Origin: Prorocentrum cordatum
Taxonomy: Eukaryota
Assembly (NCBI GenBank): GCA_963575745.1
Contig: CAUYUJ010000040.1
Coordinates: 62,001 to 119,220 of the forward strand
Direction: 5' to 3'
Length of the DNA stretch: 57,220 nt
Shown: positions 1-53,153 of the stretch, one piece after another
How the letters are laid out: every line of letters starts with the position of its first letter
How positions within the stretch are numbered: the stretch's first letter is position 1
Notes under the pieces: generated by a model
The model's input: only the letters and a program-made list of their open reading frames with translations
What the model was told of the DNA's origin: nothing
Database searches by the model: none
Translations under genes and position numbers: made by a program

Positions 1-324
1 GTACCCATTCTTTCAGTACCCATTTCGTGCGTGCAGATGTTTGAGCTCGTGAATGCTGGAGCTCATCGGTCTTCGCATCCCTCGGAGATTCCAAAAGGGT
101 TGGGTTCCTTCTCTGAAGGATGCGACGGACGTTGACCTCAAGAATTCTCTTGCTCAAGCGGTGTGTCTGACATGGCCATGGTGAGCATGACGATGATGAT
201 GGTGTTGATGATGATGTCGTCTCCGCAACCATCGATCTGACAGATGCGACACGTGCACTCGCAGTGAAACGTCTTGCACCGATCGGCCAGGAGCGAACTG
301 CGTATCACCAGCGAGGAAGTTCAA

Positions 325-612
325 TCACCCCTCAGAGTCGGTTGGAATCTCGTGCCGCATTTGTTCAACGAGATCGGTGTCTCGAGCCTTACGGCATTCA
401 TCACAATCGCAGGCTGCTTGCGCAAGGCTCACGATCGAAGACGCACGCTTCTTTAGCACACGGAGTCGGACCCCTTGCCTGAAATTCTTCATCCTCAACA
501 CGCGCACCAGTTTGAGCAATGCACGGAAACGCCTCTTCACGATGGGGTTCGATTTGGTGATGTACACGGGAACTTTGGCCGGCTGCCATCTCAGATTCTT
601 TTTTATGGCCAT
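325..612 (-). CDS. Small basic hypothetical protein (95 aa, MAIKKNLRWQ...CDCDEC...), possible element cargo
   Basis: Non-repetitive K/R-rich ORF with ATG at 612. A DinoSL-like core AGCCATTTGGGC (668-657) lies about 45 nt upstream. No family recognised. Confidence 0.3.
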   Translation of the reverse strand: MAIKKNLRWQPAKVPVYITKSNPIVKRRFRALLKLVRVLRMKNFRQGVRLRVLKKRASSIVSLAQAACDCDECRKARDTDLVEQMRHEIPTDSEG

Positions 613-719
613 CGGGTGGTGTATGCTGGAGTTGAAAATCGATGGAGTTGAAAACCGCCCAAATGGCTCGAGCACGAACTGCCTCTACGGAATTGTTGTG
701 CCCAGGGTGGTTGCCAAGT

Positions 720-930
720 GTTGCATAGCATTGCGTAGCATTGCATCGTATTGCCACGCCCAGCATAGCATAGCGTTGCACAGCCTGTTTTGTTACGTCC
801 AACTTAGCATTGCATAGCGTTGTTTGTTGCATCCAACGTAGCATCGCACAGCGTTCCAGAACCTAGGATAGCCGATAGCATAGCATAGCATAGCATAGCA
901 TGTTCCATGCAGCTTCATTCGCATAGCATG
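720..930. repeat. Degenerate (GCATA)n pentamer tract
   Basis: gcatagcatagcatagc runs and variants seen directly. Confidence 0.8.
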
Positions 931-1057
931 CGCAAGCTCCCGATGCATCAGTCAGTATACTTGTTGTCTCTATGCCGTCCGAGCCGCGCTAGGTCACACC
1001 CACCCGCAGGGGAAAGCCAGATGCGCTTGGTCGCCACGGTTGGGACTCCTCCCCCCA

Positions 1058-1265
1058 TCCTCCTCCTCCTCCTCCTCCTCCTCCTCCTCCTCCTCCTCCT
1101 GATTCTCCCCCTCACCCTCCTCCTCCTCCTCCTCCTCCTCCTCCTCCTCCTCGTCCCCCTCCTCCTCCTCCTCCCCCTCCCCCTCCTTCTTCTCCGCCAC
1201 GAATGGATTCGGCTCGAGTTCTTTGTCAGAGCTGGCTCCCAACAAAGGGAGAGAAAGAAAGAGAT

Positions 1266-1322
<57 letters not shown>

Positions 1323-1345
1323 CCAAGAGCGAGAGAGAGAGAGAG
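1058..1345. repeat. (CCT)n followed by (GA)n microsatellites
   Basis: Seen directly. Confidence 0.9.
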
Positions 1346-1389
1346 TGGGTCAGGTGGATGAAGGGTGATGCATCTTCTCTTACTCAAGG

Positions 1390-3783
1390 TCAAAGACGCT
1401 TCGGCGTGTAAATCCGAGAGTCCAATCCGAGATCGGCGATGATGTGAAACGACTTAAACACTCGATGCTCGAACTTGTTGGCATGCGCGTGCTCCGCAAC
1501 GGTTCTGAATATCAAATTCAGTGCCTCATCTTTCCACACAGCATACCAAGTTGGATTTCCGTGCCATTGGATCCTGGTGGAACTTCTCGGACAACCGACC
1601 GACGACGGGCACGAGGACGAGGAGCAGGAGCATCCGAGGACGAGGGGGACAGGGAGAGGAAAGGAGATGAGGAGGAGGACGCGGAGGAGGAGGCGGAGGA
1701 GGAGGCGGAGGAGGAGGCGGAGGGGGAGGAGGAGACGAGGAGGAGGATGAGGAGGAGGAGGGCTAGTAGCCCCTCGCCTCCTCGTCCTGCCTCCTCCTCC
1801 TCTCTACCTCGTCCTCGTGCCCTCAGTCGGTCGGGTGTGCGAAGCCCCGCTCCTCTCCGCAAGGTGGGCGCTGAAATGAAACTTAGGAACGAAGTGCGCG
1901 TGGGCGCGTCCACACCGTAGCAGACAGGATTGCATCATGTCGAACAGTTTCTGAATGCTAGGGCGGGGCACGGCGATTGGCTCATCCTTCAGCGCAGTGT
2001 AGAAATCCCAGACAGACATGGCAGCCGCCAACACGTGTTTGTGGTATGGGATGTTGCGAAACCTGTCTTGATCGGCCAAATAAATAGCAAACTGAAGCAT
2101 TATCAAACTTTCATACGATTTTACCCTCATTGTGCCACCAATGAAAACCCCGTCGTCGTTGCACTCCGACTCCACAGGCTCCCCACCCAATGTAGATAGA
2201 GTAAGGTCACCAATTCTATCCCCCCAAGGAATTTCAGCTTTGACTTGCCACTCCATCAACATGTCCCTCATGTGCTTGCATCCCATGTCGAGTCTCGCTT
2301 CTTTGGTCCCATGGAGATTCCAGGGGTTCGATAATATTATCCTCCAGATAACCGTGCTCGCAATTCTCATAATTGGCCCACCGCAAAGCGTGTGCATTGT
2401 ATCTATTGCGCAGCCTGTTGTAGGATCAATACCTAAACCTGAAAACAATGGATTTCTATGAACTGCAGGGCCACACCTCTTATTTGTCTCGTCCTTCTGA
2501 AATCTCCACATCACAGCTTTGAAATGTGGCTTTGCAGGAAACACGTGCTGTGGATTTTGGAGCGTGTCCGACTGAGTTAGCACGTCTCCTGCTTTCAAGG
2601 ATAGGTGATCGAACTCGAGATCACTGCGCAGCGTTGGGCCATATCCTGTTTTGCCTTTGTTGAGCGATATCTTGTTGACAAGTTTTTGCAGGGTTGCGTC
2701 GTCATCCACATCCAAAGTGAATTCACACATCTTGCAAAAATCTTCATAGTCCCCCTCTAACACGGGTTCCCAAGGGATCTCGCTCAAGCTCATTTCGGCA
2801 TACCCATCATGCATGCTATGCTTCGCGCAGCAACAGAAGGGGCAAGGATTGTTTTTAGAACTGGCGCTGGGCAACGCGTGCGTCGACCCCACGTCCGACC
2901 AATCCCCCTTAAGCCAACGCACTTGGGCGTTGAAGCCTAAATCCTCACCGAAATCGTTCAATGCAGTTTTCATGATATGATTGGCTGGCCATGCGTTGCC
3001 ATTCACATCATGCAGAGGCCGTCGTCCATTGGCAAGAGCTTTGAAACAATAGTGTAGATATCTCAATATCGCCCACGTCGAATGCCAGCCCCTGCAACCG
3101 CACCTGCAAGACTGACTGTGGCGCCAAACCGCCCCGAGGTGTCGTTTTCCAGTGGCGACGTTTACTACCCAAAACCCCGTCATAGAGTCGACGTTGCTTG
3201 CCAATGGACTCTGGTATCTGACACCGTCCGTGTACAGTGCCAGAGGGATCGGCGCGCGGCGCTCGCTCCTCTCGCATTCCTTAAAAACAGGGTGGCGGTG
3301 ATAACACTCTGGCCATTCCATCGCCGCAACTTTATCGAAAAGCCCTGGCGCTGATGCAACCTCATCTGCCAGGCTCTCGAATACAAGGAGGACCTGAAGA
3401 TCAACACTCAACTCTAAACCCTTTTTCGGAGGTGCCGAAGGAACGTTGATCATATCATACAAACGTGTGTCCGAAAAAGCTGAGTCAAGTTTTGTCTGAT
3501 ATTTTCCGCTTTGGAGGTCTGGTGGCAAGGCGTATTTTGCAAACTCTCCTCCCACGCAACCCGCCGCATCAGCGTGATGACGCGCGATTGCAAAGTCTCG
3601 AGCTGAGATCTTCCCCACGGCGTATAATGACTTCAGATGGCGCAACAAATTCCAACCAGCAATCCGAAGATCATGCATCATATCATTGTATTCTTGTTTT
3701 TCGTACGCAGGCACGTAAGATTCAAGATCAATGAAACGGCGCCGTCGTTTGAAACCTTGGCCATGGGCAGGTGTGGGCATCAT
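1390..3783 (-). CDS. CMC/EnSpm/Plavaka-like DDE transposase, 2 exons (3783-1853, 1573-1390), 704 aa
   Basis: Motifs in order: PIPLALYTDGV (D1), CRCGC, WLKGDW (D2), PCPFC, AIDTMHT, FVPKFH. After a 279-bp GA-AG intron the frame continues in register as RIQWHGNPTWYAVWKDEALN (catalytic E) to TGA at 1392-1390. Spliced length is 2115 nt (705 codons) with no internal stops. Confidence 0.8.
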
Positions 3784-3929
3784 GGCGCATAAACCTGAGG
3801 CGAAACGCTTGCGGAAAATGTCAGTGGGGTTCCGTCTTCTCTCTCATTCTCTCAAGGGCCCCCATGTTAGTCCTCAAGGTTTCTAGGGTGGATCGTTCAG
3901 GGGGCTGAGATACTTAAGAGGCAACCTCA

Positions 3930-4260
3930 GAACCCTTTGGATTTGCCCTCCCCCCCTTCCCCCACCGAAGACAGCCCTCCTAGACATGCCCCAAGACCCC
4001 AATAGCCTAAGCTCGCCAAGACCGTAAGACTCCCACACCAAGACCACCAAGACTTTAAGACCCCACAACCTTAAGGACTGCACATCTCCCAAGAACCTCG
4101 AACCCCAGGGCCCCAAGACTTCCCCAATCCGAATCGCCAGGACCCCAAGATCCCCAAGACCCCATGTCTCCGATCCCCAACAGATCCCCAAACAACACAA
4201 TCCCAAAGAGACCCCAGGACCCCCAAAGAGACCCCAGGACCCCTAACGCCGTATCCTCCC
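3930..4260. repeat. Degenerate CCCCAAGA short-period repeat
   Basis: Repeated ccccaaga/ccccagga units. Confidence 0.6.
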
Positions 4261-4892
4261 GCCCCCCCGAGCCAATCGACTTACCGCGAGGCATCCCGCC
4301 TGCGGTCTCGAGTCGGCCCGAGGGGTCATGGAGTATATGGCGATGGGGAGGGTGAGGCGGGGCGTCCATGGGCCTGTCCAGACGCGCCGATTCGCGAAGC
4401 ACGATCAATCGGCACTCACAGCCGCAATTCTGCATGATCCCGAGGCTGGCAGTACCCAATCCCTGTAGGACAGGGGGTGAAGGGACGATGAGGATCAGGT
4501 AGGGAGGAGATGGCTGGGAGGAGGAAGAGGAGGTAGGCAGGGAGGAGGAGGAGGTAGGGGGAGGAGGAGGTGGGCAGGGGGAGGCAGAGAGGAAGGAGGT
4601 ATGGAGGAGGAGGAGGAGGAGGTAGGAGGGAGCAGGCATGGAGGAGGAGGAGGTAGGCAGGGAGGAGGGAGCTGGCAGGGAGCAGGCAGGCAGGGATCAG
4701 AGAGGGAGCAGGCAGGCAGGGAGATGGGCAGTCCGAAGCGGTTCGGAGGAGGATCAGGTGAGGGAGCAGGCAGGGATTTGGTAGGTCAACAGAGATTGCC
4801 GAGATAACGGCCTGATCCGCCCGATCAGTGTAGGAAAATTTGGTTGGTCACGGCCCCCAGCGGTTCTGATCTGTCAATCTCGGGCCAGCCCC

Positions 4893-5227
4893 GACTCAAC
4901 GGACCTCACCGGGTCTCAACGCGTCGCGTTGAGACGCGTTGAGTCTCACCATCCCTGTAAAAACACAGGGTCCCAGGGCCCACTCAACGCGAATCACCGG
5001 GTCTCAACGCGTCGCGTTGAGACCCGTTGAGTCCAGCTTTTTCCGTCACAGGAAGGGTGATTCCAGGTTTTTCCGTCCCAGTCCAGGTTTTTCCGTCCCA
5101 CTCCAGGTTTTTCCGTCCCAGTCAAGGTTTTTCCGTCCCAGTCCAAGTTTTTCCGTCCCAGTCAAGGTTTTTCCGTCCCAGTCAGAGTTTTTCCGTCCCA
5201 GGAAGGGTGAGTCCAGGTTTTTCCGTC
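4893..5227. repeat. Two nested palindromes followed by nine copies of a 20-bp unit (GTCCAGGTTTTTCCGTCCCA)
   Basis: GTCTCAACGCG-T-CGCGTTGAGAC at 4913-4935 and, with longer arms, 4998-5026. 20-mers start at 5031, 5061, 5081, 5101, 5121, 5141, 5161, 5181 and 5211 (last one partial). A 10-bp spacer GGAAGGGTGA occurs at 5051 and 5201. Confidence 0.92.
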
Positions 5228-5724
5228 GGTTGAGGTGTCGGTTGAGGGATCAGGGCCTGCCAGCAGCGCTCAGCATGCTCTCGGCGTGCTCCCCGCACGC
5301 CCGCATGCCTGACCAGGGGCTGGAGGCCTCCCCCCACCTCTTCCTCCTGGTCCTCAGGGTCCGTCCTTCCCTCGAGCCCTGGGGTCCTGAGACGTTTCCG
5401 AGCTCCTCCTCCTCCTCCACCTCCTCCTCCTCCTCCTCTCTCCTTTCCCTCCTCATCTTCCTCCTCCTGTTTCCATCTTTCCCCCTCCTCTCTCCTCCTC
5501 CTCCTCCTCCTCCTCCTCATCATCACCATCATCATCATCATCATCATCATTCTCATCCTCATCCTCATCCTCATCCTTTTCCTCATCCTCATCCTCTTCC
5601 TCCTCCTCATCCTCTTCCTCCTCCTCCTCCTCCTCCTAGTTGCGCCTCCCGTGCGCAGCACCCCGCGTGCTGCCCATCTCCGTGACGCCGAAGCCCACGG
5701 AGTGCACGATCGTCGCGAGGACGA

Positions 5725-7677
5725 TCAGGCCGCAGACGAGCTCCGCATGCGCTTCTGGCCATCTGACTTGTTCGCGAGCTTCGCGCTCTCGGTGACCCAC
5801 GCGTCGTGCATTGACACAATCATACGCGTCGCCTTCACGAGCTTGTTGCTTCCAGGGTTCACCTTCTCGCTGAAGTCCTGCAGCCAGCGCTCGAACTGAG
5901 AGATGGCATCCTCGTTCTTCTTCGCCTTGATCTTCTGGAGCATCTCCGCGACGTCGCCGCTGATGAACTTCGAGAAGTTCACATTGCTCTTCAGCTCCTT
6001 GTCGAGGTTATCCCTGGCTTTCAACACCTTTCCGATGTGGCCTGGCGTGTCGAACACGGTCCAGCTTTCGTCGGTACCTTTCACGTCGGAGATCAACGCA
6101 TCTGCTGCGGCGATGGCCATGCTGTAGGCGAGCTTGGCAGCCTTGGCATCGCTGATCAGAGAGTTCGCCTTCCTCTTCTTGGGTTGCTCTTCTGGAGTTG
6201 GAGGCTCTGCAGCTGGCTGCTCAGGACCCTTGCGCCTCCTCCTGCGACCCTCAGGCTCTGTGGGAGGCTCTGGCTGCGTCTCATCCTCGGCTTTCGGCTC
6301 TGCCGTCTCCTCTGCCTTCTCCTCTGCCGTCACCTCGGGCTTCTCCTCGGGCTCCACCTGCGCCTCTGCAGGCGGTGCAGGCGGCGCAGGAGCCGCCTCA
6401 TTCTGCAACATTGCAGCCCTCGTGCCGATGCTCAGCCAGGAGTCCTTGTTCTTGATATCGGTGCTGCCCGAGCTGTAGGCCGTCTTCGTCAGCTGCCAGC
6501 GCTCCTCGTACGACTCCTCGGTGCCGTCGATCCTGTAAAGGTACAGCCAGTCCTTGCGCCACGTGCACCACTTGTAGAACGGTGGCCCCATCGCAACGCA
6601 TTTCAACGTGTAGTTGATCGCGTTCTGTTCTCCTCTCTTGCCCCCGCCCTCCTCCGTGATGATGCGGTTCAGCGCGTAGTGGCGCTCGTCAGAGAAGGTC
6701 CTCTTCGACAAGCGCTCCATCTTGACCTTCTCCTGCTTCCACTCCGTGAACTGCTTCTTCATCCACCTCGCGCGGAAGTCGCGCTGCGCATCGGGGTTGC
6801 GGCCAAGTGCTTTGTAGTTCTGCTTCGCTTCGATGCTCTCTTCGCTCTTGCCGTTGATGAATCTGTCCCACTGGCCGCCCGCTGGATTGCCAGCGGCACC
6901 CCGAGCATCGAATTTCCAATCCTGCGCCATCATCTGCTTGAAGAATTTCGCCCTCGGCTCATTCAAGTTCAAGACATCCATATCCGACAACAAGTTATCA
7001 TTGCTGGTGGCCTTGTGGGCGTCGGCCATGAGCTTGTCCATACTCGCTGGAAGGTCGCGACCTGCGCTCATCAGGCTGTTGGCCTCATCCTCAAGCATGG
7101 CCTCCAAGTCGCGTGCTCGACCAACGTCACCATCCGAGCCTACCCAAGATGACGCAGCTGTCGATGGCACGGCTGTCGAGGCCTCGACCCCCGTCTCCTT
7201 CATCGCATAAATCTTCATGCTGGCCTCCGTCACCCTCTTGGCGAAATCCACATCCACGTCCTCGCTATCCTCGGCGCAGGCGTCTAGCAGCCCGTCTGCG
7301 TCCTCCACCTCTTGCTCCTCAATCTTCATTTTGAGCTGGTGGAGGTAGTCCTGCTCCTCGCCATCATCGGAGCTGACCTCCACCATGTCGGCATACGGAT
7401 CCTCCAGGACCTGGCTGGTGAACGCCTGGTCCATCGATGCCTCAGCCATCGTTGCATCGATCTCAGTCTGAGTAGCTGGCTGGGTGTCGGAGCTATCGTC
7501 CTCGGGCTCGGTGCCGCCGTTGCCCTCGCAGGGCGGCATGAGGGCCACGGGCTCGGCGGGTTGCTCGCTGTCTGCCTCGACCCCGAGCGTCTGGGTCTCG
7601 ACGGGGGAGCTGGGCACAGTCTCGTCGGGACCCTGATCATTGCTGTCAGGCAACGACTCTGGCTCCTGAGACGCCAT
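5725..7677 (-). CDS. Hypothetical 650-aa protein: acidic N-terminus, W/Y/K-rich central domain, P/E linker with basic NLS-like motifs, helical C-terminus
   Basis: Long uninterrupted, intronless ORF with GC3-rich codons and non-repetitive protein-like sequence. No family recognised. Confidence 0.75.
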   Translation of the reverse strand: MASQEPESLPDSNDQGPDETVPSSPVETQTLGVEADSEQPAEPVALMPPCEGNGGTEPEDDSSDTQPATQTEIDATMAEASMDQAFTSQVLEDPYADMVEVSSDDGEEQDYLHQLKMKIEEQEVEDADGLLDACAEDSEDVDVDFAKRVTEASMKIYAMKETGVEASTAVPSTAASSWVGSDGDVGRARDLEAMLEDEANSLMSAGRDLPASMDKLMADAHKATSNDNLLSDMDVLNLNEPRAKFFKQMMAQDWKFDARGAAGNPAGGQWDRFINGKSEESIEAKQNYKALGRNPDAQRDFRARWMKKQFTEWKQEKVKMERLSKRTFSDERHYALNRIITEEGGGKRGEQNAINYTLKCVAMGPPFYKWCTWRKDWLYLYRIDGTEESYEERWQLTKTAYSSGSTDIKNKDSWLSIGTRAAMLQNEAAPAPPAPPAEAQVEPEEKPEVTAEEKAEETAEPKAEDETQPEPPTEPEGRRRRRKGPEQPAAEPPTPEEQPKKRKANSLISDAKAAKLAYSMAIAAADALISDVKGTDESWTVFDTPGHIGKVLKARDNLDKELKSNVNFSKFISGDVAEMLQKIKAKKNEDAISQFERWLQDFSEKVNPGSNKLVKATRMIVSMHDAWVTESAKLANKSDGQKRMRSSSAA

Positions 7678-8050
7678 GGTCCCGCGCTGCGCAGGTCTGT
7701 GTCCTTCGGGCCAGGGCGCCGCTCGGGCACCAGGACTTGGGCCAGAAACTGGCTGAGGGTTGGGGTTGATTTGATTCGTGTCTGAGTGCTTCGAATGTCA
7801 TCTGAAAAAAAAAAAAAACTTATCCTCTCACGCTTCCCCGTTCTCTCCCTCCTCTCGCCCTCTCATCTCCCTCCTGTCCCTCTCCCTCCCCTCTCGTTCC
7901 TTCGTCCGTCCCTCCTCCGTCCTCCTCGGGGCCTCCTCTTCCTGCCAGTCCATCGGCTCCCAACTTGGGCCTCCCCGAGGCCCTGCCCCGTACGTTCAGT
8001 CGTGTTCCGTTTTTTTCTGGGCCCCCGCTTGGTTGGCAACAGCCTCGAGT

Positions 8051-10459
8051 CTAGCGGACGGCGTCCCTCAGATCGAGTTGGTTCATGAAGTTCTCTGGCG
8101 GCGAGTCCATGTCGGACATCTCTGCCTTTCGAGGGGAGCGATGATGGGCAAAAGATGGACAGGTGGGGGAGAGGTGCAGGATTGGTGGCCTAGTGCGACG
8201 AGAGTTTCTTGTCGAGCTGTGCCCTCAGCTTAATGTACTCGGAGACTTCCTTAATGGAACTGTTTAAGATCGGTTTGAAAATGGGGGGGGGGGGGGCGAG
8301 TGGGACCAGGCGGTCCTTTAACTTGCTGTTCTCCCTCCAGCGGCAGATGAAATCGACCCTGGCCCGTTGTATTCTGGCACGAAACACCGCTTTAGTTTTG
8401 GGGTCCATCAAGCTGCACTGTTCTGGCCTCAGCCTGTCAGACACGACCTCGGGCATGATGCTGGGAGCGGGTTCCATGTCCTCGATTCGCAGCCGAATGA
8501 CCGAGAGTAAGAGAAGAAAGGCGAGGAGTCAGAGGAGGCAGACTAGGATAATGAAGAGCAGGAGGAGGAGGATGATGATGATGATGATGGGAAGGAGGAG
8601 GAGGAGCGGCAGCAGCAGCAGACGGCTGAGGATGACCTCGGTTTCGAACTGCAGCTTTTCGATGTGATACTTGCCGTGGGCCGCCAGGAACCCATGTCTG
8701 TCGTACGTGGGGGGGTCGCAGCTGTGGTCGACGAAGTGCTGCGGTTTCGGTTCGACCGATATCGAGGGAGCTGGATGAGGATGTGAGGATACATCAGGAG
8801 AAGGAAGAGTAGGACGTCGACCTCTGCGTCTTCCCCGATAGTGCATAAGTAATACACAAGCCGTCGATATTCGGGCGGGATCTGGGGGGCAGGAGGTCAG
8901 GATAACACGGCGAGGATGAGGAGGAGAATGAGGGAGGGGAGGTGGATGAGAAGGATGAGCAGGAAGGGGAGGAGGAGAAACAGGAGGAGGAGGGGGAGGA
9001 GGCGAAGAGGGAGGAGGCGGAGGAGGAGAAGGAGGAGGAGGAGGAGGATACTACCCTTTCCATTCCCAACGCCTCCGTTGTCGCAGCAATCGGCGCTGGC
9101 GACGTAGCCGTCGGTGCTGAAGTAGCCTTCGGTGTTGGCGAAGTAGCCTTCGGTGGTGGCGAAGTAGCCTTCGGTGCTGAAGTAGCCTTCGGTGTTGAAG
9201 TAGCCGTCGGTGCTGAAGTAGCCGTCGGTGCTGAAGTAGCCTTCGGTGGTGGCGTAGCCGTCGGTGCTGACGTAGCTCTCGCTGCTTTCGCAGCTGGGCC
9301 CGCTGGCGAAGCCGCTGCGGGTCGCTTCATACCCGCTGGTTGGTTAGCAGCAATTCCGTCACCGATGTCATCGCTGTCAGAGAACGTCCACGGGCTCGGC
9401 CTCCTCAATATGTTCCTCCTCGTCCCCCTCAGCGCGTTCGGTGTCCTCTTCGGCGGCGTCGTCCATGTTCTGAGCCTCCGCGCCCGATGGCCGTTTGGCA
9501 ACAGCGGCCGGCCGCTTCAGAACTGCGCAATTTGGCAATGGTTTGAACACGTGCTTTTTCTTGGCCTGCTCCGCCTCTGATTTACTCATCTCTCCACGGG
9601 CCATCTGCTCGACGAACCCCTTCATCGCCTCAATCGCTTCCTCCTTTGCTGATGGCTCGTGGTGTGTAATCACAAGTTGAAGGCGCGCGACCTCGTCCTT
9701 GGCCCCTTCTCCCCTCATCTTGATCCGCAACATGTTGACGACGTTGTCCTTCTGGGTCTCGTTCTGCTCCAGCAGCCTCCACGTAGTGCCCTTGTACTCG
9801 TACCTGTGTAGCTCATGACATCTACTTCCCTTTCGAGCTGCATGGTGCTTTTGTTGATTGAGCTCGGCGTATGTTAAGGATGGAATCTCCCATGTCCCAC
9901 CGCCCGTCCACTTCGCAACCACGCAATCTGTATCATCTGCGGCGTCGTCCGTCACTAGGGGCAAAGACGGTTGCCTGACGCCGAGGCCGCCCCTTGATAA
10001 AATCTCGCAGCGGTAAGCCAACATCTCGTCCTTCTCAAACTTGTACTCGTAGTTGCGGCATGCTGAGCTTCCTGAGATACCACTTGTCGGGGCGTCATTC
10101 AGGAAAAACACAAGCCACTCTGGTGGCTCATCCGACTGCGCCGCCTTGTGTATTATGATTGCCTGGTCGACGTCGCGCCGTAGCGCGCGCATTCTGTGCG
10201 CCATCTTGTCGCTGTATGCGTCAATCTCTGCTCCGAGTTTCCAATCCTTCTCCCTCTCACGAGCTGCAGCGGCCACTGCTCTAGCCATCGCTTTTTGGGC
10301 CATCCCATGAGGTATGCATCTGATTAACTCTTGGTAGCGTGTAATCATCGGCGTGTCCCGAGGTCCGCACAACTGGTCTCTGTAGGCGATCAGCGCAGAG
10401 CTGTCCAGGAAATCCAAACAACCTTTTTTGACAGCCTCCTGGTCTTCGCTCAAAGACAT
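8051..10459 (-). CDS. Probable multi-exon hypothetical gene, possibly frameshifted, with KRPAA motifs and an ATSAP/ATSP repeat
   Basis: Main ORF runs 10459 (or 10519) to 9377, then continues in another frame as SDSDD...MKRPAAASP(ATSAPT)n. Candidate downstream exons: 8881-8822, 8770-8637, 8480-about 8317 and 8125-8051 (AEMSDMD...DAVR*), separated by CT-rich intron-like tracts. Exon phases are not fully consistent. Confidence 0.5.
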
Positions 10460-11291
10460 CGTGCGCAGAGCGTGTGACCAGCACGCCAGCGAAAGAAATA
10501 TGGAGTGAAACAACTTCATATATACATAACTTCGTCGAAGCGTCGAAGAAATGCACCTATCGCGCCAAAACGGCTACACACGGAGGAGGACAGGCGGGGG
10601 GGAGGACGGGGCGACATTCGTATCAACCCTTGTCTTCTAACAGGGGAACCGTACGTGTGAGGGGTGTTCTGAAATGAATGGTGTTTGCGCGTGCGGTCTG
10701 TGCCACTGGAGTCATCGGTGGAGCTGCCTTAGGGATGTGCCGAAATGGGTGCCGTTGACGCATGTGGCCTGTGCTGCTGAGGCTTTCGGTGGAGCTACCG
10801 AGGGGTATCTGTCAAAAGAAATGCCGCCGACCCCTTTCAGACGGCCGCCAAGCACGTGATCAGAATTCGCCGACCTGGGGAGGTCGCTAGGCGTGTGAGG
10901 CTTACGCTGAATAAGGAATTCGCCGACCTCATAAGAGGCCCCCAGGCGTGTGAGAACTATCATATGGGTATCGTATGGACGCTACACAGCAAAGCGCACA
11001 TATACTTTAGTGTAATATTTAACAGATGTTGCACAATTGTATGTTCTCTTAACACAGCTAGAATATATATATATATATATGTATATATATATCATAATAT
11101 ACCATGTGTATACATACTATACGTACACTATGTCACGCGTACACGATGTATCAGTGTATGCACAGATGCACACGCTGTGCACTACACAATCTATATATAT
11201 ACATATACATAATATATGTATATGTGTGTATGTATATAAACATATATATATATAGAACAATACATGCATATGACTAATACTACACACTTGT

Positions 11292-11438
11292 TGGTCGCGC
11301 GGATCAGATTTGATCCCTCGGATCAGATTTTGTAGTTTGGATCTATTTTGTCCTCGCGGGAAACCGCGGATCAGATCCGACCTCTTGGATCTGACCCGAG
11401 CCGTTCGGAAACGCAGGATCTGAAAAATAGATCCTGTG
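11292..11438. repeat. GATC-rich subterminal repeat block and putative transposon end
   Basis: About nine GGATCAGAT/GGATCT/AGATCC motifs in both orientations within about 140 bp. Terminal hairpin CAGGATCT-gaaaaat-AGATCCTG, then TG. Confidence 0.6.
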
Positions 11439-11439
11439 G

Positions 11440-12807
11440 ACCCCAGGGAAGGCGTTGAGTGGCGCCACGGCTCCTTCGACCAGCGCCTCGGTCTTTGCCC
11501 GCTGGCGCCGGGCGAGGTGGCGGATCACACCTCGACTCTTCGCTGCCCGTCGAAGGCGAAGCGGCAACGGAAACGGCCCGCCCCCGGCGACCTTGGCGCC
11601 GCCGCCGGAGGAGAGCACAAGAAAGCCTCGGGGTCGAGGCTAGCCCTTGTCCTCGTCCTTGTTATTGTCCTTGTCCTTGTTGCTCCAGCGCTTGTCCTCC
11701 TCCTCCTGGTAATGCTGCTGCTTCGTCGTGGGCGCCGCATTCTGCTCCTCCGCCGCCCGCCGCGCGAACTCCCCCGGCAGCGCTCCGCCGGGATAGTCCA
11801 TCGTGGACATGGTCATCAGCTCGGCCCCACGGCCCCGCGGAAGTCGGGGTTCTTGAGGTTCCTCTTCGTCGCCTGGTGGATCTGGGGAACCAGGCGGCCG
11901 ATCATCTCCGCGGAGGAGAGCTGCCCGAGGTTCAGCTATAGCGCTCAGCAGTGGTGGAGGATCGTCATCAGATCCCGGTGCTTCATCGCCACTGGCGAGT
12001 CCAGGTTCACCCCCGACGCCGGCGCCCAGGAGTCGTGGAACCCGGCCAGCTCCTCCCCCGCCGCTCGCGCCGCCAGCAGCGCCTCGCGGATCGCAGGCGT
12101 CGCCGTCGCCGAGATGGGCCAATCGGCCGGAATCTTCCGTCTCGAAGAACTTCATCACTATCAGCTCTGCGCGCATCGAGAAGTATCTGGCTCGGCCCAC
12201 CTCGCAGCGCACTGACGGCGCTCGAGGGCCCCGGCCTGGCCCTGGCCGCTTCTCCTCGCTCCACTCGTCCACGTCCTGGTCGCCGGCCCTCTCCACGAAC
12301 GCCTAGAAAGTCTCGCCCTCCTCCTTTTTCCCCGCGGGTCCGACGGGCCCGCGCGCCTGGAGCCGGAGTGGGTTCCCGGCGATCTCCGGCGGCGCCGGCC
12401 CCCCGAGCTTGGCCTCGCAGAGGCGACGTCTGCGAACCTCCAGTCGGCCACCAGACCTCCCGCCGCAGGCGCCGCTCCCGCGCCAGCAGGGGCGGCCTCC
12501 AGCGCATTGCCCAAGGCGTCCGCCTCGATCCTCGCAGCCGCCAGCTCGTCCTCCGCCATCGCGTCTGGCCCGCGCAGGTTCCCCCGCGCGCGCGCTGGAG
12601 CTGGCGCCCTCGTCGGGATGGGGCGACGATGTGGTTGGCCAGATTGCTTGCCGCCACATCGAGGTCCGGCATCCAGCCCACGCAGCGACCGTCCGCCAGG
12701 CGGACTCGCAGGACCCTCGCGTGCCATCTGAAGTTCGGGTCGTCGTCGAAATTGATGGCCAACTGGGGCCCGGGGATCAGGGGCGGCCGAGCCGCCGCCG
12801 CCGCCAT
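11440..12807 (-). pseudogene. Decayed ORF1/gag-like sequence, probably from a DIRS (tyrosine-recombinase) retroelement
   Basis: INFDDDPNFRWHARVLRVRLADGRCVGWMPDLDV resembles the WHxRxL...W...TPD N-terminus I recall from dinoflagellate DIRS-like ORF1s. Multiple frameshifts. Recognition is from memory only. Confidence 0.4.
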
Positions 12808-14435
12808 AATACCTCAAGGGCGGCTCTAGCGGCGGCTGGGCGCCCAGGCTGACTCCTCGAGCTCCGGCTCCGCGCCCCGCCCCGAAGAGGCAGACGAGCG
12901 AGGCGAGCGCCGCGCTCGCCCCGCTCGTCTGCGGCGCGCTCAGCGCGGCGCAGCCGATGGAGCGCCAGCTGCGCCGCCGCGGCTGGCGGGCGCCTCGCCC
13001 AGCGCCGCGAGGCCAGGCCGCGACCCCGGCTGCCGGGCGCTGCGCCGGCGCCCCCGCGCCCAGACCTCCCCGGCAGCGAAGACCGCGGCTGCCGCGAGCC
13101 CGCCGGGCCCGGCGAGGACGGGAGCGAGAGCCCCGGCCGCTGCTGCCTGGCCCCGCGCGCCGGGCGCGCCGAGCCCTGGCGGTCGCAGACGACCGCCGGG
13201 CACGAAGGCGGCGGCGCCGCCGCGGAGCGCGCCCCGCAGGCGAGCCGCGGCTCGCGCGGGCAAGCCGGGCACGGCGGCGAGGCTGATCGCGCGGCCCAGC
13301 CCCCGATGGCTGATGCGGCCAGCTTGCTGGCGAAGCTGGCGGCCGCAATCAGAATCTCGCGACCCACCCGCCGGGGTGGCAATGACTCGAGAAAAAGCTG
13401 CAGGGGCGCTGGCGCGAGGGCTATAGGGTGCAAGCACCCTATAGAAACTTTCTGTATCATGCCGCCTCTTTCGTCGCCCCCCCCCTGCCACTTTCCCCCC
13501 GCTGCTGCGGCGGCGGCTTTTCGGCCTCCCTTCCCGTCCTTCTCGTGCCATTCGTTATCGCTGCCGCTGTTCTCTCAGCCCGGGCCTCGCTCCTCGCCCT
13601 TCCATCGCAGTCCTGCGAGTCGAACGTCGCGCGCGCGAATGACGGCGCCTGCGCTGTCGTTGATCATGAAAGTATTGGCCAACTCCCCTTGTCAATTGAT
13701 GCGAATGAGTCGGGTGCGTCGCAGGGCAATTACGGTTCGATCGCCCTCCTCCGTCTCCTATTCGTTTTCCTCCTTTCATCATCCCTTTTCCTCTCCTCCT
13801 TGCCCCCCCCCGCCCCCCGCGACGGACGCCCCCCTCAAAAAAAACACGCAAAACAACCTCGCGTCTTGCTGATGCTGCCACAACCTTCGCCAACTATCCC
13901 TCATCCTCCTGCTCGTCGCCGCCCGCCATTATTCTCTGGCGCGTCGTCGCGCGTGTCCACCCGCCCGGCGGCGCTTCAATTGTCGCCCCTCGCCTTCCTG
14001 TTCCGCCCCCGCGCCCCGCCCCCCCCCCCCCCCCCCCCCCCGTCGACTTCCATTGGCCCCCCGACGTGCAAAACAAATCCCGCCAGCCCTCTGGGCGACA
14101 GGTGGTCTAGCGATGTTTGTTTTCCTGGTCCAAAAGCTTCTTCTCTCACTTCGGGAAGGGGCTTGAATCTGCCGGGGCCTGGGGGGCCCAGCCAGCAGCT
14201 TCGCGCCGGGCGAAGCCCATGTCCAAGGAAAACTAGCCCCAGGAGTAGGATATCGTCGCGGGAACGAGGGGCCATCTCAAGCGAAGATGTTCTCGGTCTC
14301 GATAGCAAGTAGCGCGCGTCGCGCTGAGGCGCAGTCGCGTCTTGGCGGCCGGCCGCTCGAGTACAAACGGCCGCGGACGCGCGCTCGCCATCTCTCGCCC
14401 TTGCCCCGGTTCTCTTTAGAGTCGGGGGGGGGGGG

Positions 14436-14830
14436 GGTCAGTTTCAGTGGGGGAGCAGTGAAACAGGTACAGTGAGAACAGAGAGGGAGAACAACCCTCA
14501 GTGAATGAGCCCATTTGCCTGTTTCGTCCATAGCAACTTTGGCGCAGGCTGCTTGCTAGCCTGTGTGGTGATTTACAGCATCTCACCTCGGTCCGAAGCT
14601 CAGGGGGACCAAACGCGATATCCTGGATTGATTATAAAACGGAATATCTATTTTCCCTTCACGCCATCCCGCCAATCTTCCGCCACTACGTGCCCTCCGC
14701 CGACCCTGGGAGCATCCTGGACTCGTCTTTGAGACACGTTCGCGGACATAGGCTCAGGACCCCTTTTCAGATTGTGAGGGCATCTCGAAGCGGAAGGCTG
14801 AGATCCGTGGAATAGCACGCTCCACTGACT
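14436..14830 (+). repeat. 5' LTR
   Basis: Direct repeat of 22575-22958, roughly 92% identical by eye, with a 13-bp extra segment near its end. Termini are (G)GTCAGT...ACTGAC(T). Confidence 0.93.
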
Positions 14831-14831
14831 T

Positions 14832-14843
14832 TGGTAGCCAGAC
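14832..14843 (+). promoter_or_regulatory. Primer binding site (TGGTAGCCAGAC), tRNA-iMet-like
   Basis: TGG starts 1 nt after the LTR end. Resembles TGGTAGCAGAG, the complement of initiator tRNA-Met 3' ends. Confidence 0.65.
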
Positions 14844-14891
14844 GAAGTTGCGGCAAACTTCGAGAGTCATAACTCGATCTCCAAGTTTTAG

Positions 14892-16636
14892 ATGGCAAAT
14901 GAGAATGGAGGCGGCCTAAAAATACCGACGTGGAATGGTGAAGCATCAGCTCTCGAGAGTTTGAAGGAGAAGGTCAAACTGTGGGTCCTGGGCACAAAGA
15001 AGGAGGAGCGCATATACCTGGGGCCGCGACTACTGCAGGCCATGGATGAGGACTCACAGCTGTGGCATGAGGCCAAGAAGGTCGCAACAGAGGATTTGAT
15101 CAAAGGACGGAGCCGAACAGGTGGTATCAGCGCTGAAGGGCATCCGAGGTACGGTCACCATGCAGGAGGCAGTTGCGAAGTGGAGAGAATTCATGAAAGG
15201 AGTTTACCGAAACCCGGGAGAAGATCCAAAAATATGGGTTTCGAGATTTGACATCCACCTGAGCAAGATCGGGAAGGCCCTCCATGCAGTATGTGACGAC
15301 ATCCCAGCGACAGGATTCATGCACGAGTTTATATTGGGACTGATTCTCTTGGATGGGACAGGCCTAGATCCATCAGAGCAGGCAGCTGTGCTGGCGACAC
15401 CAGGAGCACGTGGCAACTCATACATGTACAATGACGTGAAGAAGGTGCTGGCAGAGCAGTGGTCAGACGAACAGCTAACGGCGCGAGGTCGACAAAAAGG
15501 TTACAAAGCTCGTAGAGGAGTTCATGCCATCTTCGAGGACTCCGATGAGCTGGCGGCCTACGCGGAGGAGGTCTACGAGGAGGCCTACAAATACGGCTTC
15601 GGGGGGGCCAGCGACCTGACCGAGACAGCGATGACAGCCGCAGAGGACCTGATCTCCTACGCGGGCGCGGACACAGGAGAACGAGCTGAACAAGAAGCAG
15701 GTGGGGATGGACTGGCAGCCGCCGCGTTGCCCAACGAAGGCGGGGACTTCGACGACTGGACGGAGACCGCCTATGCCGCGTCCAGAACGTTCCAAGAAGC
15801 ACGTCAGCTCATCAACGAAGTGAAGAACGCGGGGGCTTCTTCCCGGTGGTAGGGCTTGGGGCCTACGACGCACTACCGGGACAAACTGGTGCCGGACGTG
15901 GACGCGCGGTCAGCCGTGGAGGACCTCCACGGAAGGGCAAAGGCAAGGAAAGGAACCAACCGAAGAGCAATCCCAAAGGCAAGGGCACTGCGCAGGACAA
16001 CACGAAGAACACGACGGCGAACCAGAAGACCATTGACCGCGACACGTGTCGTCTCTGTGGAGAGCGAGGACACCGAGCCAAGGATTGTCCCAATCGGGGC
16101 AACGCAGGAACAGCTGGAGACCGACGCCGAGCATTCAACAGCTTCGTGGGGGCTCTCTACGAGAACGATCCGACGGAGCTCATCGGGGCCGCGAATGACG
16201 ACCAGGAAGAAGAGTGTGACTTCGTGGGGTTCAGCCTGGAGGAGTGCAAGGGCTACGCACTTCTGGACGGAGGCGCCTCGTGGTCGGTAGGAGGCGTCGA
16301 GCAGCTGGAGTACATCAACGAGAAGCTCGAGAAACCCATGGAGGTCGACGTGAACCAGAACCTGGGATTCACGCTCGCTGGAGGGGATCGAGCCGACGCT
16401 CCATCCCGGGCATCGTTCGAGGTCGAGAGCTTAGACCACAAGAGGATCGAGATCTACGTGTTGGATCGGCCTTCGCCAGTTCTCCTGGGCATCGACGCGC
16501 TGGAGAAATGTGGGCAAGTGATCGACTAGGGTAGGAACTCAGTCTACTCACAGAAGCTGGGGAAGGAGCTGACCACGAAGGTGCTCGCATCCGGGCACGT
16601 AGCCATCAGCCTGACCGACCTTGGTCAGCAGAGGTC
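14892..16636 (+). pseudogene. gag: copia gag plus aspartic protease (frameshifted)
   Basis: KIPTWNGE N-terminus, Zn knuckle CRLCGERGHRAKDC (CX2CX4HX4C), protease ALLDGGAS and PVLLGIDAL. Frameshifts near 15110 and 15840; stop at 16527-16529. Confidence 0.85.
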
Positions 16637-17946: not shown

Positions 17947-18570
17947 CGACTCGACTTGGCAGAGGTGGCTTGTGTAGCGGACTCAACGCCATCGAAGGCG
18001 GTGATGGGGCTAGGTGGCAAGGCCGTAAGACTCAGTAACTGGAACGGCTATGACTTCTCTACGCGTACCGGGGCCGGGAAGCTTCCGAATATACTCAAAG
18101 AGAAGAGGCCGAGAAAGATCTGGTTCTCACCAACTTGCGGGGCAGAATGCCCACTTCAGAACCTGAATCCCATCGCCGAGGAGTCCGAGAAGAAGCTGGT
18201 CAAGACGAGGGGGATTCAGAGAAACCTGCTGTGGGTGATCAACAAGCTCAAAGAAGAAGACTTCGGAGACATCTATTTCGAGCAGCCAGGAAAATGCAGA
18301 TCATGGACAGGCAACTTCAAGGACATACGAAGGCAGCTCTTTGGCGCCATCATCCATGGATGCATGTACGACATGAGGGACGAGAAGGAAAGCGTGCTTC
18401 TGAAAATGGAGTGGTACATCGCGACATCGGACGAGAAGTTCGGCGATACCGTTGGGAGAGTATGTCAAAATCTTCATGCTCATCTACCTCTGGAAGGGAG
18501 CACTCGAGTGGCACTCTCAGCGAACTACCCCGTGAACATGTGTAAGCATATTGCCAAGTACTTATTGATC
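17947..18570 (+). pseudogene. C5-cytosine DNA methyltransferase-like domain within copia pol
   Basis: LDLAEVACVADS (degenerate motif I), GYDF, IWFSPTC (motif IV with catalytic Cys, 18121-18138), IYFEQP (motif VI), IHGCMY (VII), KMEWYIAT (VIII-like) and a C-terminal SANYP..MC. Confidence 0.7.
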
Positions 18571-18899
18571 AAGCCCTCGTCAGACGATGCTCTGAGCTTT
18601 CTCGTGAAGGCACACAATGAGCTTGAACAAAATGTATTTGCCGCAAGGCACAGGCACACGACGAAGCGACCAGCGGACACAGATGATCCAGAGCTATGGG
18701 AACCCAAGCGACCAACCCTGGAACCAGCAGAAGTACCACAGGAGCCAGAAGGAGATTATCCAGCAAGAGAGGAAGAGACTCGCGCCTGGAAGGAAGAGAG
18801 CGACGTTCGACCCGAAGAAGGAAGTGAAGCTCTTTCAGTAGGAAATTTTCGACTACCACTTCCGAAAAGCGTGCAAGAGTGCTCCAAGCGAGAGATCCG

Positions 18900-41221: not shown

Positions 41222-41269
41222 GATCGGCAGCCGCAGAGCGGCATGGGCCGGAGGGCGAATCGGGCGAAG

Positions 41270-53128: not shown

Positions 53129-53153
53129 GTTGGAGCTGGGTCTACAGCCCGCG

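What the first reader, a model, noticed from the sequence alone, without database searches (positions are those of the whole stretch)
1..11438. Candidate giant cargo-carrying CMC/Plavaka-like DNA transposon with an intact transposase
Seen: an open two-exon 704-aa DDE transposase, an intact 650-aa ORF, a third gene over 380 aa and a small basic ORF, all on the minus strand. They sit between structured repeat blocks and end at a GATC-repeat terminus (...ATCCTGTG). Unlike every retroelement in the window, the transposase and the 650-aa ORF are undamaged, suggesting a young element. Known: CMC-superfamily elements end in CMC...GKG, and CACTA members have subterminal repeats bound by an accessory protein (TnpA). 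Inference: this is a multi-gene element over 11 kb whose accessory proteins I cannot assign to any family.
Basis: partly seen in the sequence, partly recalled or inferred. Interest (0 to 1): 0.78.

Follow-up and report, generated by a model that had tools for sequence, protein, structure and literature searches.

The report
Dinoflagellate RAG1-fold transposon, ends unproven
This stretch of red-tide dinoflagellate DNA carries an intact gene for a cut-and-paste transposase shaped like RAG1, the recombinase that assembles antibody genes, beside a partner gene that also sits next to such a transposase in a distant relative; whether the whole 11 kb moves as one giant element could not be shown.

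Summary
The ORFs are real. It has no Pfam hit but belongs to a very large unannotated family (2045 clusters). Its AlphaFold model (pLDDT 87) matches the RAG1 core (Z 13.9), ProtoRAG and Transib. Its D-D-CxxC-HxxxH-E motifs have almost the same spacing as RAG1. That places it in the CMCT clade (EnSpm/CACTA, Mirage, Chapaev, Transib, Plavaka and others), so "CMC/Plavaka-like" is right at clade level only.

The 650-aa ORF is a dispersed multi-copy gene in Prorocentrum cordatum. A 29%-identical homologue lies upstream of a family transposase in an independent environmental contig, in the same order and strand. It is therefore probably a companion gene. The 380-aa ORF is an orphan.

ORF3, ORF2 and the small basic ORF each have a worn spliced-leader relic upstream, the mark of mRNA recycling.

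The GGATC cluster at 11301-11438 is real, but nothing shows it is a terminus. I found no inverted copy, no other copy and no TSD.

Verdict: an intact RAG1-fold transposase in a probable multi-gene element; the giant-element boundaries are unproven.

The parts
1853..3783 (-). Transposase exon 1 (residues 1-643 plus two bases of codon 644). It carries D186, the Cys cluster C226/C228/C230, D294, C314/C317, D461/H464 and H636/H640.
   Evidence: ORF list; family alignments with these columns invariant or nearly so; AF2 model pLDDT 87.2; RAG1 fold matches; positions checked.
1574..1852 (-). Phase-2 intron, 279 nt and in frame, low-complexity. It has a GA donor and an AG acceptor and holds the TAG that ends the 659-aa ORF.
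   Evidence: Sequence. Relatives read straight through HL-7 aa-GNP. The intron-encoded stretch has pLDDT below 50. The closest relatives, P0080 and P0167, also lose the frame right after HLA(E/Q)R. The splice model gives the family's 7-residue spacing. P. cordatum annotation used GA donors (PMC10666404 passages).
1390..1573 (-). Transposase exon 2 (60 codons plus TGA stop). It holds the catalytic glutamate E660 in the motif GNPxxY..DExLN.
   Evidence: (blastp to the C-termini of 14 uninterrupted locus ORFs).
5725..7677 (-). ORF2, 650 aa, intact, no known family. It has an acidic disordered N-terminal third, a conserved core at about residues 230-400 and a helical C-terminal part. Probable companion gene of the transposase.
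   Evidence: Identity is 99% to two full-length annotated P. cordatum proteins and 92% to a 201-aa partial one, each of the three on a different contig. A 48% relative comes from ENA. A 29% homologue in L052 lies upstream of that locus's transposase on the same strand. GC3 is 0.79.
7736..7759 (-). Worn spliced-leader (DinoSL)-like relic, 59-82 nt upstream of the ORF2 start.
   Evidence: Gapped scan of the whole window: score 11, tied for ranks 3-6 of all sites on both strands. Coordinates.
9377..10519 (-). ORF3, 380 aa, an orphan. A plausible gene, but not shown to belong to the element.
   Evidence: No relatives, no Atlas hit, no PDB hit, no Pfam hit. GC3 is 0.66. The resemblance to the first gene of L052 is not significant: 7 of 500 shuffles reach the score and unrelated controls score as high.
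10557..10579 (-). Worn DinoSL-like relic, 38-60 nt upstream of the ORF3 start.
   Evidence: Second-best SL-like site in the whole window, score 12. Coordinates.
325..612 (-). Small basic ORF (95 aa; 23 K+R, 9 D+E) downstream of the transposase, with a split SL-like relic at 656-692.
   Evidence: (score 10, rank 7). No Pfam hit.
11298..11438 (.). Cluster of GGATC-containing short repeats and small hairpins.
   Evidence: (family D18). No inverted partner in the window. No such cluster in the 80 related loci.
11040..11280 (.). AT-rich (TA)n/(CATA)n microsatellite between the GGATC cluster and the ORF3 upstream region. L052 has a similar (TA)n just before its first gene.
   Evidence: (family D12).
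4885..5201 (.). Intergenic repeat blocks between ORF2 and the transposase: two palindromic 61-nt repeats (4885-5033) and seven copies of a 20-bp unit (5062-5201).
8794..9330 (-). 178-aa ORF over an 18-bp minisatellite (9104-9276), probably not coding.
   Evidence: GC at codon positions 1, 2 and 3 is 0.42, 0.80 and 0.60, with position 2 highest. Tandem repeat. No Pfam hit.

Best explanation
The region holds an intact, probably functional gene for a DDE cut-and-paste transposase with the RAG1/Transib architecture. It is an RNase H-like catalytic core with D186, D294 and E660, with a zinc site built from C314/C317 and H636/H640. The protein belongs to a very large, unannotated family of dinoflagellates and other protists within the CMCT clade.

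Upstream on the same strand lies a companion gene (ORF2) of unknown fold. ORF2 is dispersed in several intact copies in the Prorocentrum cordatum genome, and it lies next to a transposase of the same family in a deeply diverged environmental relative.

The most likely reading is a multi-gene DNA transposon, or a recent remnant of one. Its transposase would excise and reinsert the unit by cutting at both ends, and ORF2 would be an accessory factor by analogy with TnpA of CACTA elements or RAG2 (inferred). ORF3, ORF2 and the small basic ORF each carry a worn spliced-leader relic, which suggests each is transcribed separately and has been refreshed through mRNA-derived copies.

Shown: the gene structure, the fold, the motifs, the multi-copy state of ORF2 and one case of conserved linkage.
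Inferred: mobility, the role of ORF2, and the membership of ORF3 and the small ORF.
Not established: either end of the element.
For: Family size: 2045 representative clusters at E up to 1e-3 and 387 at E up to 1e-30.

Conserved residues: D186, C226, C228, C230, D294, C317 and D461 are invariant, and C314 and H464 are at least 90% conserved, in 56 sequences. H636 is invariant and H640 nearly so in the 35 full-length sequences.

Fold: AF2 gives pLDDT 87.2 and pTM 0.85. In Foldseek, all rows listed above rank 45 are RAG1 or BbRAGL chains, the best at E 2e-5. VIA-align gives RAG1 Z 13.9 (454 of 550 residues aligned), BbRAGL 12.2, HzTransib 11.4, P element and IS256-type about 9, and integrases about 6.

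Spacing of D-D, D-C, C-C, H-H and H-E: 108/20/3/4/20 here, against 108/19/3/5/20 in pig RAG1 (D603/D711/E965, C730/C733, H940/H945; PMC13056857 passages).

Clade definition: C(2)C plus H(3-4)H defines the CMCT clade (PMC12730594 passages).

Intron: it lies at the same place in the closest relatives, which argues against this copy being a processed retrocopy.

ORF2: three annotated P. cordatum proteins on three contigs fall in its 90% cluster, two of them full length, and identity to P0164 is 642 of 650 residues. L052 has an ORF2 homologue aligned over both conserved parts. It lies about 3.5 kb upstream of the L052 transposase start on the same strand, against about 3.9 kb in the window.

SL relics: 3 of the 7 best SL-like sites in the 57-kb window lie 38-82 nt upstream of the ORF3, ORF2 and small-ORF starts, in sense orientation. 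L052 has clear relics (1 and 3 mismatches) before its first gene and its ORF2-like gene. In the 80 loci there are 15 relic hits in 13 loci, against 0-1 in each of 20 shuffles.
Against: - No terminal inverted repeat, TSD or second copy was found.
- No transposase of 362-1154 aa more than 48% identical was found, although near-identical ORF2 copies are annotated. ORF2 copies may therefore spread without the transposase, or the transposase copies may simply be unannotated.
- Only 1 of the 3 related loci with at least 3 kb upstream of the transposase match (L004, L030, L052), and 1 of the 6 with at least 2.3 kb, holds an ORF2-like gene. No other flanking ORF is shared between loci.
- Codon composition differs: GC3 is 0.54 for the transposase, 0.79 for ORF2 and 0.66 for ORF3.
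- More than 20% of genes in two Symbiodinium genomes carry SL relics (PMC5585692 passages), so the relics fit host retrogenes equally well.
- ORF3 has no relatives at all.
- Co-orientation is normal for dinoflagellate gene clusters (background knowledge).
Confidence: 0.6

Rival explanations
1. Only the transposase gene is transposon-derived, either as a small single-gene element or as a lone transposase. ORF2, ORF3 and the small ORF are ordinary dinoflagellate retrogenes that happen to sit in the same co-oriented gene cluster. ORF2's several copies arose by mRNA retroposition, not by transposition.
For: SL-like relics lie upstream of ORF3, ORF2 and the small ORF but none was found before the transposase. 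ORF2 and ORF3 are single uninterrupted ORFs while the transposase keeps an intron. ORF2 has annotated near-identical copies, the transposase has none. GC3 differs. Retroposition is frequent in dinoflagellates (PMC5585692 and PMC3229502 passages). Most related loci are 2-4 kb with the transposase alone.
Against: The ORF2 family is rare: 2 clusters among 5.8 billion in the length range searched. Yet its only other sighting in DNA, L052, is again upstream of and co-oriented with a transposase of this family, at similar spacing. Short metagenome contigs cannot show neighbours.
Confidence: 0.25
2. One reading: one element of more than 11 kb, of CMC/CACTA/Plavaka type, whose right end is ...CCTGTG at 11438 with GGATC subterminal repeats bound by an accessory protein, and whose left inverted end lies beyond the window start.
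For: The GGATC cluster is real and local. The proposed end closes with TG, as most CMCT termini do (5'-CA..TG-3'; PMC12730594 passages). Base composition changes there, from GC 0.53 to 0.74. L052 also begins with short tandem repeats and a (TA)n tract before its first gene.
Against: An end of GTG is expected by chance every 64 bases, and it was chosen after the fact. There is no inverted partner in 1-1400, no other copy of the 23-mer end, and no GGATC cluster in 80 related loci. An earlier unchecked note on this genome reports different termini for a related element, and those are absent here. Pfam families of CACTA and Plavaka transposases do not match.
Confidence: 0.2
3. The transposase is a domesticated or immobile host gene, one of a large expanded gene family kept for a cellular function, and nothing here is mobile now.
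For: No ends were found. Some relatives sit in permuted or tandem arrangements in metagenome contigs, and many carry SL relics like host genes. The conserved intron suggests vertical descent within a lineage.
Against: The family has 2045 clusters at 50% identity, with the catalytic D, D, E and zinc ligands conserved. That pattern is the one expected of active transposases (inference). Its members are scattered over many short, unrelated contigs.
Confidence: 0.1

Closest known systems
CMCT clade of DDE transposons (EnSpm/CACTA, Mirage, Chapaev, Transib, Plavaka, ESTA, Lanisha) as defined by Kojima 2025, PMC12730594
   Same: [quoted passage not shown] Several genes per element occur in this clade (PMC12730594 describes elements that carry extra genes). 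The proposed right end closes with TG.
   Different: No sequence-level match to any Pfam family of these lineages. There is an extra invariant CxCxC cluster between the first and second D. The insertion between D2 and E is about 110 residues longer than in RAG1 (366 against 254). Termini and TSD are unknown, so it cannot be placed in any named lineage.
RAG1 / ProtoRAG (BbRAGL) / Transib transposases
   Same: Best structural matches over the whole core (RAG1 residues 459-1001, Z 13.9; BbRAGL 12.2; HzTransib 11.4), and near-identical spacing of the catalytic and zinc residues.
   Different: About 10% sequence identity. Nothing aligns to the nonamer-binding domain, since the alignment starts at RAG1 459. 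There is no RAG2-like partner: the low-confidence model of the neighbouring ORF2 (pLDDT 59.7) is mainly helical with a few strands, and Pfam finds no kelch repeat. Heptamer-like ends and a 5-bp TSD were not tested.
En/Spm (CACTA) two-gene system with TnpD transposase, TnpA accessory protein and subterminal repeats (recalled from general knowledge)
   Same: A transposase plus a second, conserved, co-oriented gene; short repeats clustered near a possible end.
   Different: ORF2 shows no similarity to any known protein. Binding to the repeats is pure analogy. The genes here are separate transcription units rather than alternative splice forms.
Dinoflagellate retrogenes marked by relict spliced leaders ('mRNA recycling'; Slamovits and Keeling 2008 as cited in PMC3229502; Song et al. 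2017, PMC5585692)
   Same: Worn DinoSL-like sequences 38-82 nt upstream of three ORFs, within or just downstream of the -50 to -100 zone where relics are best kept. ORF2 and ORF3 have no introns.
   Different: The relics sit in front of genes clustered with a DNA-transposase gene that itself keeps an intron. The same arrangement, with fresher relics, recurs in L052.

Membership tests
CMCT clade (Kojima 2025) | DDE catalytic triad on an RNase H-like fold | tested here: met
   D186 and D294 are invariant, and E660 lies in the conserved DExLN motif. Fold matches to RAG1, Transib, P element, IS256 and integrases.
CMCT clade (Kojima 2025) | [quoted passage not shown] | tested here: met
   C314-x2-C317 and H636-x3-H640, conserved across the family. 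Definition from PMC12730594 passages.
CMCT clade (Kojima 2025) | 5'-CA..TG-3' termini and 2-5 bp target site duplication | tested here: inconclusive
   The proposed right end closes with TG, but the boundary is unverified. No left end lies in the window, and no other copies were reachable.
EnSpm/CACTA (CMC proper) | Sequence membership in the TnpD-type transposase families of Pfam (I recall them as Transposase_21 and DUF4218; no call gave these names) | tested here: not met
   No Pfam family matched the window protein at E up to 1 apart from one chance-level hit, and none matched 35 family members at E up to 0.1 apart from one chance-level hit.
EnSpm/CACTA (CMC proper) | CACTA-type TIRs, 3-bp TSD, subterminal repeats | tested here: inconclusive
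   A GGATC repeat cluster exists. TIR and TSD are not observable.
   No Pfam hit. The proposed end ...CCTGTG fits neither terminal type, but that end is unproven.
Transib / RAG1 | RAG1-core fold with a ZnC2/ZnH2 zinc site next to the active site | tested here: met
   Z 13.9 over RAG1 459-1001 and Z 11.4 to HzTransib. Spacing is 108/20/3/4/20 against 108/19/3/5/20.
Transib / RAG1 | Sequence membership (Pfam RAG1 family), heptamer-like CAC ends, 5-bp TSD, RAG2-like partner in RAG-like elements | tested here: not met
   No Pfam hit. A profile search of PDB sequences finds no RAG1. ORF2 shows no kelch repeat or other known domain. Ends and TSD were not testable.
Dinoflagellate SL-marked retrogenes | Relict DinoSL within a few hundred bases upstream of the start, and an intron-less coding region | tested here: met
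   Met for ORF3, ORF2 and the 95-aa ORF at a degenerate level (scores 12, 11 and 10; ranks 2, 3-6 tied, and 7 in the window). Not met for the transposase, which has no relic of score 9 or more upstream and keeps an intron.

The most novel reading that the evidence does not exclude
Dinoflagellates harbour a distinct, very large lineage of RAG1-fold transposons that travel with a conserved partner protein of a wholly unknown fold (the ORF2 family). This partner would be a functional counterpart of RAG2 or TnpA that arose independently. The element's genes would each be trans-spliced and repeatedly rewritten into the element from their own mRNAs, so that a DNA transposon maintains itself partly through an RNA intermediate.
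Probability: 0.25. Interest if true: 0.7.

Novelty: new variant of a known kind. Interest (0 to 1): 0.45.

Why it matters
Dinoflagellate genomes are huge and repeat-rich, yet their DNA transposons are almost undescribed. Three literature searches found no description of this family: Transib + dinoflagellate (4 papers), dinoflagellate + DNA transposon + transposase + CACTA (4 papers), and EnSpm + Symbiodinium (2 papers).

An intact RAG1-fold transposase from a family with thousands of members, none of them in Pfam, widens the known range of the clade that gave rise to V(D)J recombination. It offers a testable, probably active enzyme. A conserved partner gene of unknown fold would be a new accessory factor for this clade. 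SL relics inside a DNA-transposon gene set would link two sources of genome growth in these algae, transposition and mRNA recycling. It also matters for annotation, because these genes are currently filed as 'unnamed protein product'.

Tried and rejected
- **Whole genome:** none is held for this window, so copy number and boundaries could not be read directly.
- **Sequencing runs:** 9 runs were listed and no RNA holder was listed. One DNA run holds 0.74 of the sampled words and several marine metagenomes hold 0.05-0.21. No read-level evidence on ends, empty sites or splicing exists.
- **Complex prediction:** not available, so transposase-ORF2 binding is untested.
- **Terminal 23-mer:** 0 matches in viral contigs and 0 in metagenome contigs.
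- **Viral contigs:** no relatives of the transposase or of ORF2. The first try with the wide alignment A1 failed for lack of a conserved stretch.
- **ORF2:** no Pfam hit, no usable Atlas hit, no PDB sequence hit. The AF2 model is poor (pLDDT 59.7, 6 sequences) and Foldseek found nothing at E up to 0.001. The fold is unknown, not shown to be new.
- **ORF3:** no relatives of 209-665 aa, no Atlas hit, nothing in PDB. The resemblance to the first gene of L052 was rejected: SW score 60, 7 of 500 shuffles as high, and unrelated controls at 56-68.
- **tblastx of the window against L052:** only ORF2 and the transposase are collinear.
absent here.
- **Ten related metagenome contigs:** their shared breakpoints gave no CA..TG-type end and showed permuted or tandem order. 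I left this, as the subgroup is too distant (28-31% identity).
- **Regex count of loci with an uninterrupted H..H-to-E region:** 21 of 80, with 43 lacking the strict motif. This is too crude to say how common the intron is.
- **Earlier scan notes by sequence:** nothing for the transposase, ORF2 or the upstream DNA.

Full report
**Source and setting.** The window is eukaryotic DNA of about 57% GC, with many microsatellites and one 100-N gap. The 650-aa ORF is 99% identical to proteins annotated as 'unnamed protein product [Prorocentrum cordatum]'. The source is therefore this red-tide dinoflagellate or a very close relative. Its published assembly is 4.15 Gb and repeat-rich (PMC10666404, passages read). 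No whole genome is held for the window.

**The observation.**
- 1804-3783 (659 aa)
- 5725-7677 (650 aa)
- 9377-10519 (380 aa)
- 325-612 (95 aa; 23 K+R against 9 D+E)

The 659-aa ORF ends at a TAG inside a low-complexity stretch, and the same frame reopens further on. An alignment with 55 relatives shows that uninterrupted family members run from 'PKxHxxxHL' through seven residues into 'GNPxxYxTFxDExLN'. In the window that second motif lies at 1573-1393. A GA donor at 1852/1851 and an AG acceptor at 1575/1574 remove 279 nt, restore exactly the seven-residue spacing, and give a 704-aa product with a single terminal stop. GA donors are recognised in P. cordatum annotation (PMC10666404). The exon-2 peptide hits the C-termini of 14 ORFs in related loci. 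The two closest relatives seen, P0080 (77%) and P0167 (48%), lose the frame right after the same 'HLA(E/Q)R', so the intron is shared within this sub-lineage.

**What the protein is.** Pfam gives nothing for it, or for 35 family members, at permissive thresholds. A profile search of PDB sequences also gives nothing. An exhaustive HMMER search nevertheless finds 2045 representative clusters (50% identity level) at E up to 1e-3, and 387 at E up to 1e-30. Most come from short environmental or transcriptome contigs. Conserved columns include D186, C226/C228/C230, D294, C314/C317, D461/H464 and H636/H640.

The AlphaFold2 model, made from a read-through with X at the stop so that exon 2 is included, is confident: pLDDT 87.2 and pTM 0.85, low only at the N-terminus and over the intron-encoded stretch. 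In Foldseek, every row listed above rank 45 is RAG1 or the amphioxus ProtoRAG transposase (best E 2e-5). The independent aligner gives:

| Structure | Z |
|---|---|
| RAG1 core (454 of 550 residues; model 40-789 on RAG1 459-1001) | 13.9 |
| BbRAGL (ProtoRAG) | 12.2 |
| HzTransib | 11.4 |
| P element and IS256-type transposases | about 9 |
| Retroviral integrases | about 6 |

(All.) The linear spacing of the key residues is D186-108-D294-20-C314-3-C317 ... H636-4-H640-20-E660. In pig RAG1 it is D603-108-D711-19-C730-3-C733 ... H940-5-H945-20-E965 (PMC13056857, passages). I could not measure the geometry of the site because model coordinates are not exposed.

[quoted passage not shown] That clade mostly has 5'-CA..TG-3' ends and 2-5 bp duplications. 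The protein meets the clade's protein-level definition. It fails sequence membership in every Pfam family, including those for these lineages. It adds an invariant CxCxC cluster, and its insertion between D2 and E is about 110 residues longer than in RAG1. 'CMC/Plavaka-like' is thus right at clade level and unproven below it. By fold the nearest solved relatives are RAG1 and Transib.

**The other genes.** ORF2 has no Pfam, Atlas or PDB match. Its model is poor (pLDDT 59.7 from six sequences, only three of them distinct lineages) and yields no fold match. It is, however, clearly a real and repeated gene. Its 90% cluster holds three annotated P. cordatum proteins on three different contigs (979, 426 and 1509 kb). 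Two are full-length at 99% identity and one is a 201-aa partial at 92%, and identity to P0164 is 642 of 650 residues. A 48% relative comes from an ENA contig.

The key result comes from the metagenome scan with a tight transposase alignment. Of 599 pattern matches, 113 encode relatives and the best 80 were kept. Among these 80 loci, L052 (8.9 kb) carries an ORF2 homologue: 29% identity over the core at E about 1e-13, and alignable over the C-terminal helical part too. It lies upstream of and co-oriented with that locus's transposase (25% identical to the window's), at a similar distance of about 3.5 kb against 3.9 kb.

The limits of this result need stating. Only 3 of the 80 loci have 3 kb or more upstream of the transposase match (6 have 2.3 kb or more), and only L052 shows the gene. 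No other flanking ORF is shared between loci. Given how rare the ORF2 family is (two clusters found in 5.8 billion), a second co-oriented pairing with this transposase family is unlikely to be chance. I therefore take ORF2 as a probable companion gene.

ORF3 has no relatives anywhere I could search. Its weak likeness to L052's first gene is not significant. The 178-aa ORF over the 18-bp minisatellite has GC highest at codon position 2 and is probably not coding.

**Spliced-leader relics.** There are 15 hits with up to 4 mismatches in 13 loci, against 0-1 in each of 20 shuffles. Most lie shortly upstream of the transposase ORF on its strand. L052 has relics before its first gene and before its ORF2-like gene.

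The window has no such near-exact relic in 1-11438. A gapped scan of the whole window, however, ranks a site upstream of ORF3 second (score 12), a site upstream of ORF2 in a four-way tie for third (score 11), and a split site upstream of the 95-aa ORF seventh (score 10). All three are on the sense strand, 38-82 nt before the start codons. Three of the top seven sites falling in the few hundred bases that qualify, out of about 114 kb scanned, is far beyond chance by my own estimate.

Relics are the accepted mark of genes copied back from trans-spliced mRNA. They are best preserved 50-100 nt upstream of starts and occur at more than 20% of genes in two Symbiodinium genomes (PMC5585692 passages; PMC3229502 passages). 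They support ORF3, ORF2 and the small ORF as real transcription units. They do not tell transposon cargo from host retrogenes. The transposase keeps an intron and has no relic of score 9 or more, so this copy is not a processed retrocopy.

**Ends and extent.** The GGATC cluster is real: 6 of 10 window-wide GGATCWGA matches lie in 123 bp, and the region forms small hairpins with fold z -3.9. Nothing shows that it is a terminus.
- No inverted copy of the end, and no inverted match better than 10-11-mers at chance level, links 1-1400 with 10500-15000.
- No part of 1-12000 recurs in the window.
- The terminal 23-mer is absent from both DNA collections.
- Related loci show no such cluster.

Ending in GTG is weak evidence, since it is expected every 64 bases. 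The claim of a 'young' element also lacks support, because no transposase more than 48% identical in the 362-1154 aa range is on record. A 129-aa transcriptome fragment at 91% and a 148-aa fragment at 77% do exist. GC3 differs between the transposase (0.54), ORF2 (0.79) and ORF3 (0.66), which fits genes of different history.

**Earlier notes of this scan.** After forming the reading above, I found unchecked notes on other pieces of the same genome. They describe RAG1-fold, CMCT-clade, multi-gene transposons, shared cargo families and SL relics in front of transposon genes. They agree with my results but are not independent evidence. The one concrete feature I could test, the termini reported for one such element, is absent here.

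**Verdict.** This is an intact, very probably functional RAG1-fold DDE transposase gene of a large undescribed protist family in the CMCT clade. It lies beside a probable companion gene, in a cluster of SL-marked genes. A multi-gene DNA transposon is the best reading (0.6), but its size, its ends and the membership of ORF3 are open. It is a new variant of a known kind and of moderate interest.

Noticed in passing
P0015, P0170: Two transposase relatives (91% identity over 129 aa; 42% over 533 aa) are filed in EukProt under the green alga Pyramimonas sp. CCMP1952. The 91% fragment suggests that this transcriptome holds Prorocentrum-like dinoflagellate sequence, by contamination or otherwise. It is also the only hint that a close relative is transcribed.
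   Followed up: no
P0164, P0182: The same ORF2-family proteins carry two species labels in NCBI nr, Prorocentrum cordatum and Polarella glacialis. This is a possible labelling problem in the source records.
   Followed up: no
L027, L033, L035, L036, L038, L041, L042, L043, L072, L073: Ten metagenome contigs carry one transposase unit at 90-99% identity, with at least three different upstream flanks meeting at a common breakpoint. L073 and L033 show a permuted order (end of the unit followed by its start). This suggests tandem or circular copies of a family member.
   Followed up: partly
L052:1-600: The contig begins with about 14 copies of a 10-bp tandem repeat. Next come an inverted repeat around an AT-rich loop, a (TA)n tract, and a near-perfect spliced-leader relic just before the first gene. 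The layout loosely parallels window 10520-11438.
   Followed up: partly
window 53101-53145 (+) and 14521-14565 (+): The best spliced-leader-like site of the whole window (score 14; 4 mismatches in 21) lies at about 53.1 kb on the plus strand, and another (score 11) at about 14.5 kb. These are probably relics in front of other retrogenes.
   Followed up: no
window 15690-16526 (+), 40907-41524 (+), 17947-19653 (+): A gag-type CCHC zinc knuckle ORF and a protein-kinase fragment are the only clear Pfam domains to the right of the finding. A 569-aa open frame at 17947-19653 has no Pfam hit. No reverse transcriptase or integrase was detected in the 48 of 97 ORFs of 170 aa or more that were scanned across the two calls.
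   Followed up: partly
window 226-233 of the transposase protein (DNA about 3085-3108, minus strand): An invariant CxCxC(R/K)GW cluster lies between the first and second catalytic aspartates. I know of no counterpart in RAG1 (recalled). It may be a second metal site specific to this family.
   Followed up: no
window 12000-14300: A very GC-rich block (0.70-0.74) starts a few hundred bases to the right of the proposed end. It has long open frames on both strands and no Pfam hits, and its nature is unknown.
   Followed up: partly
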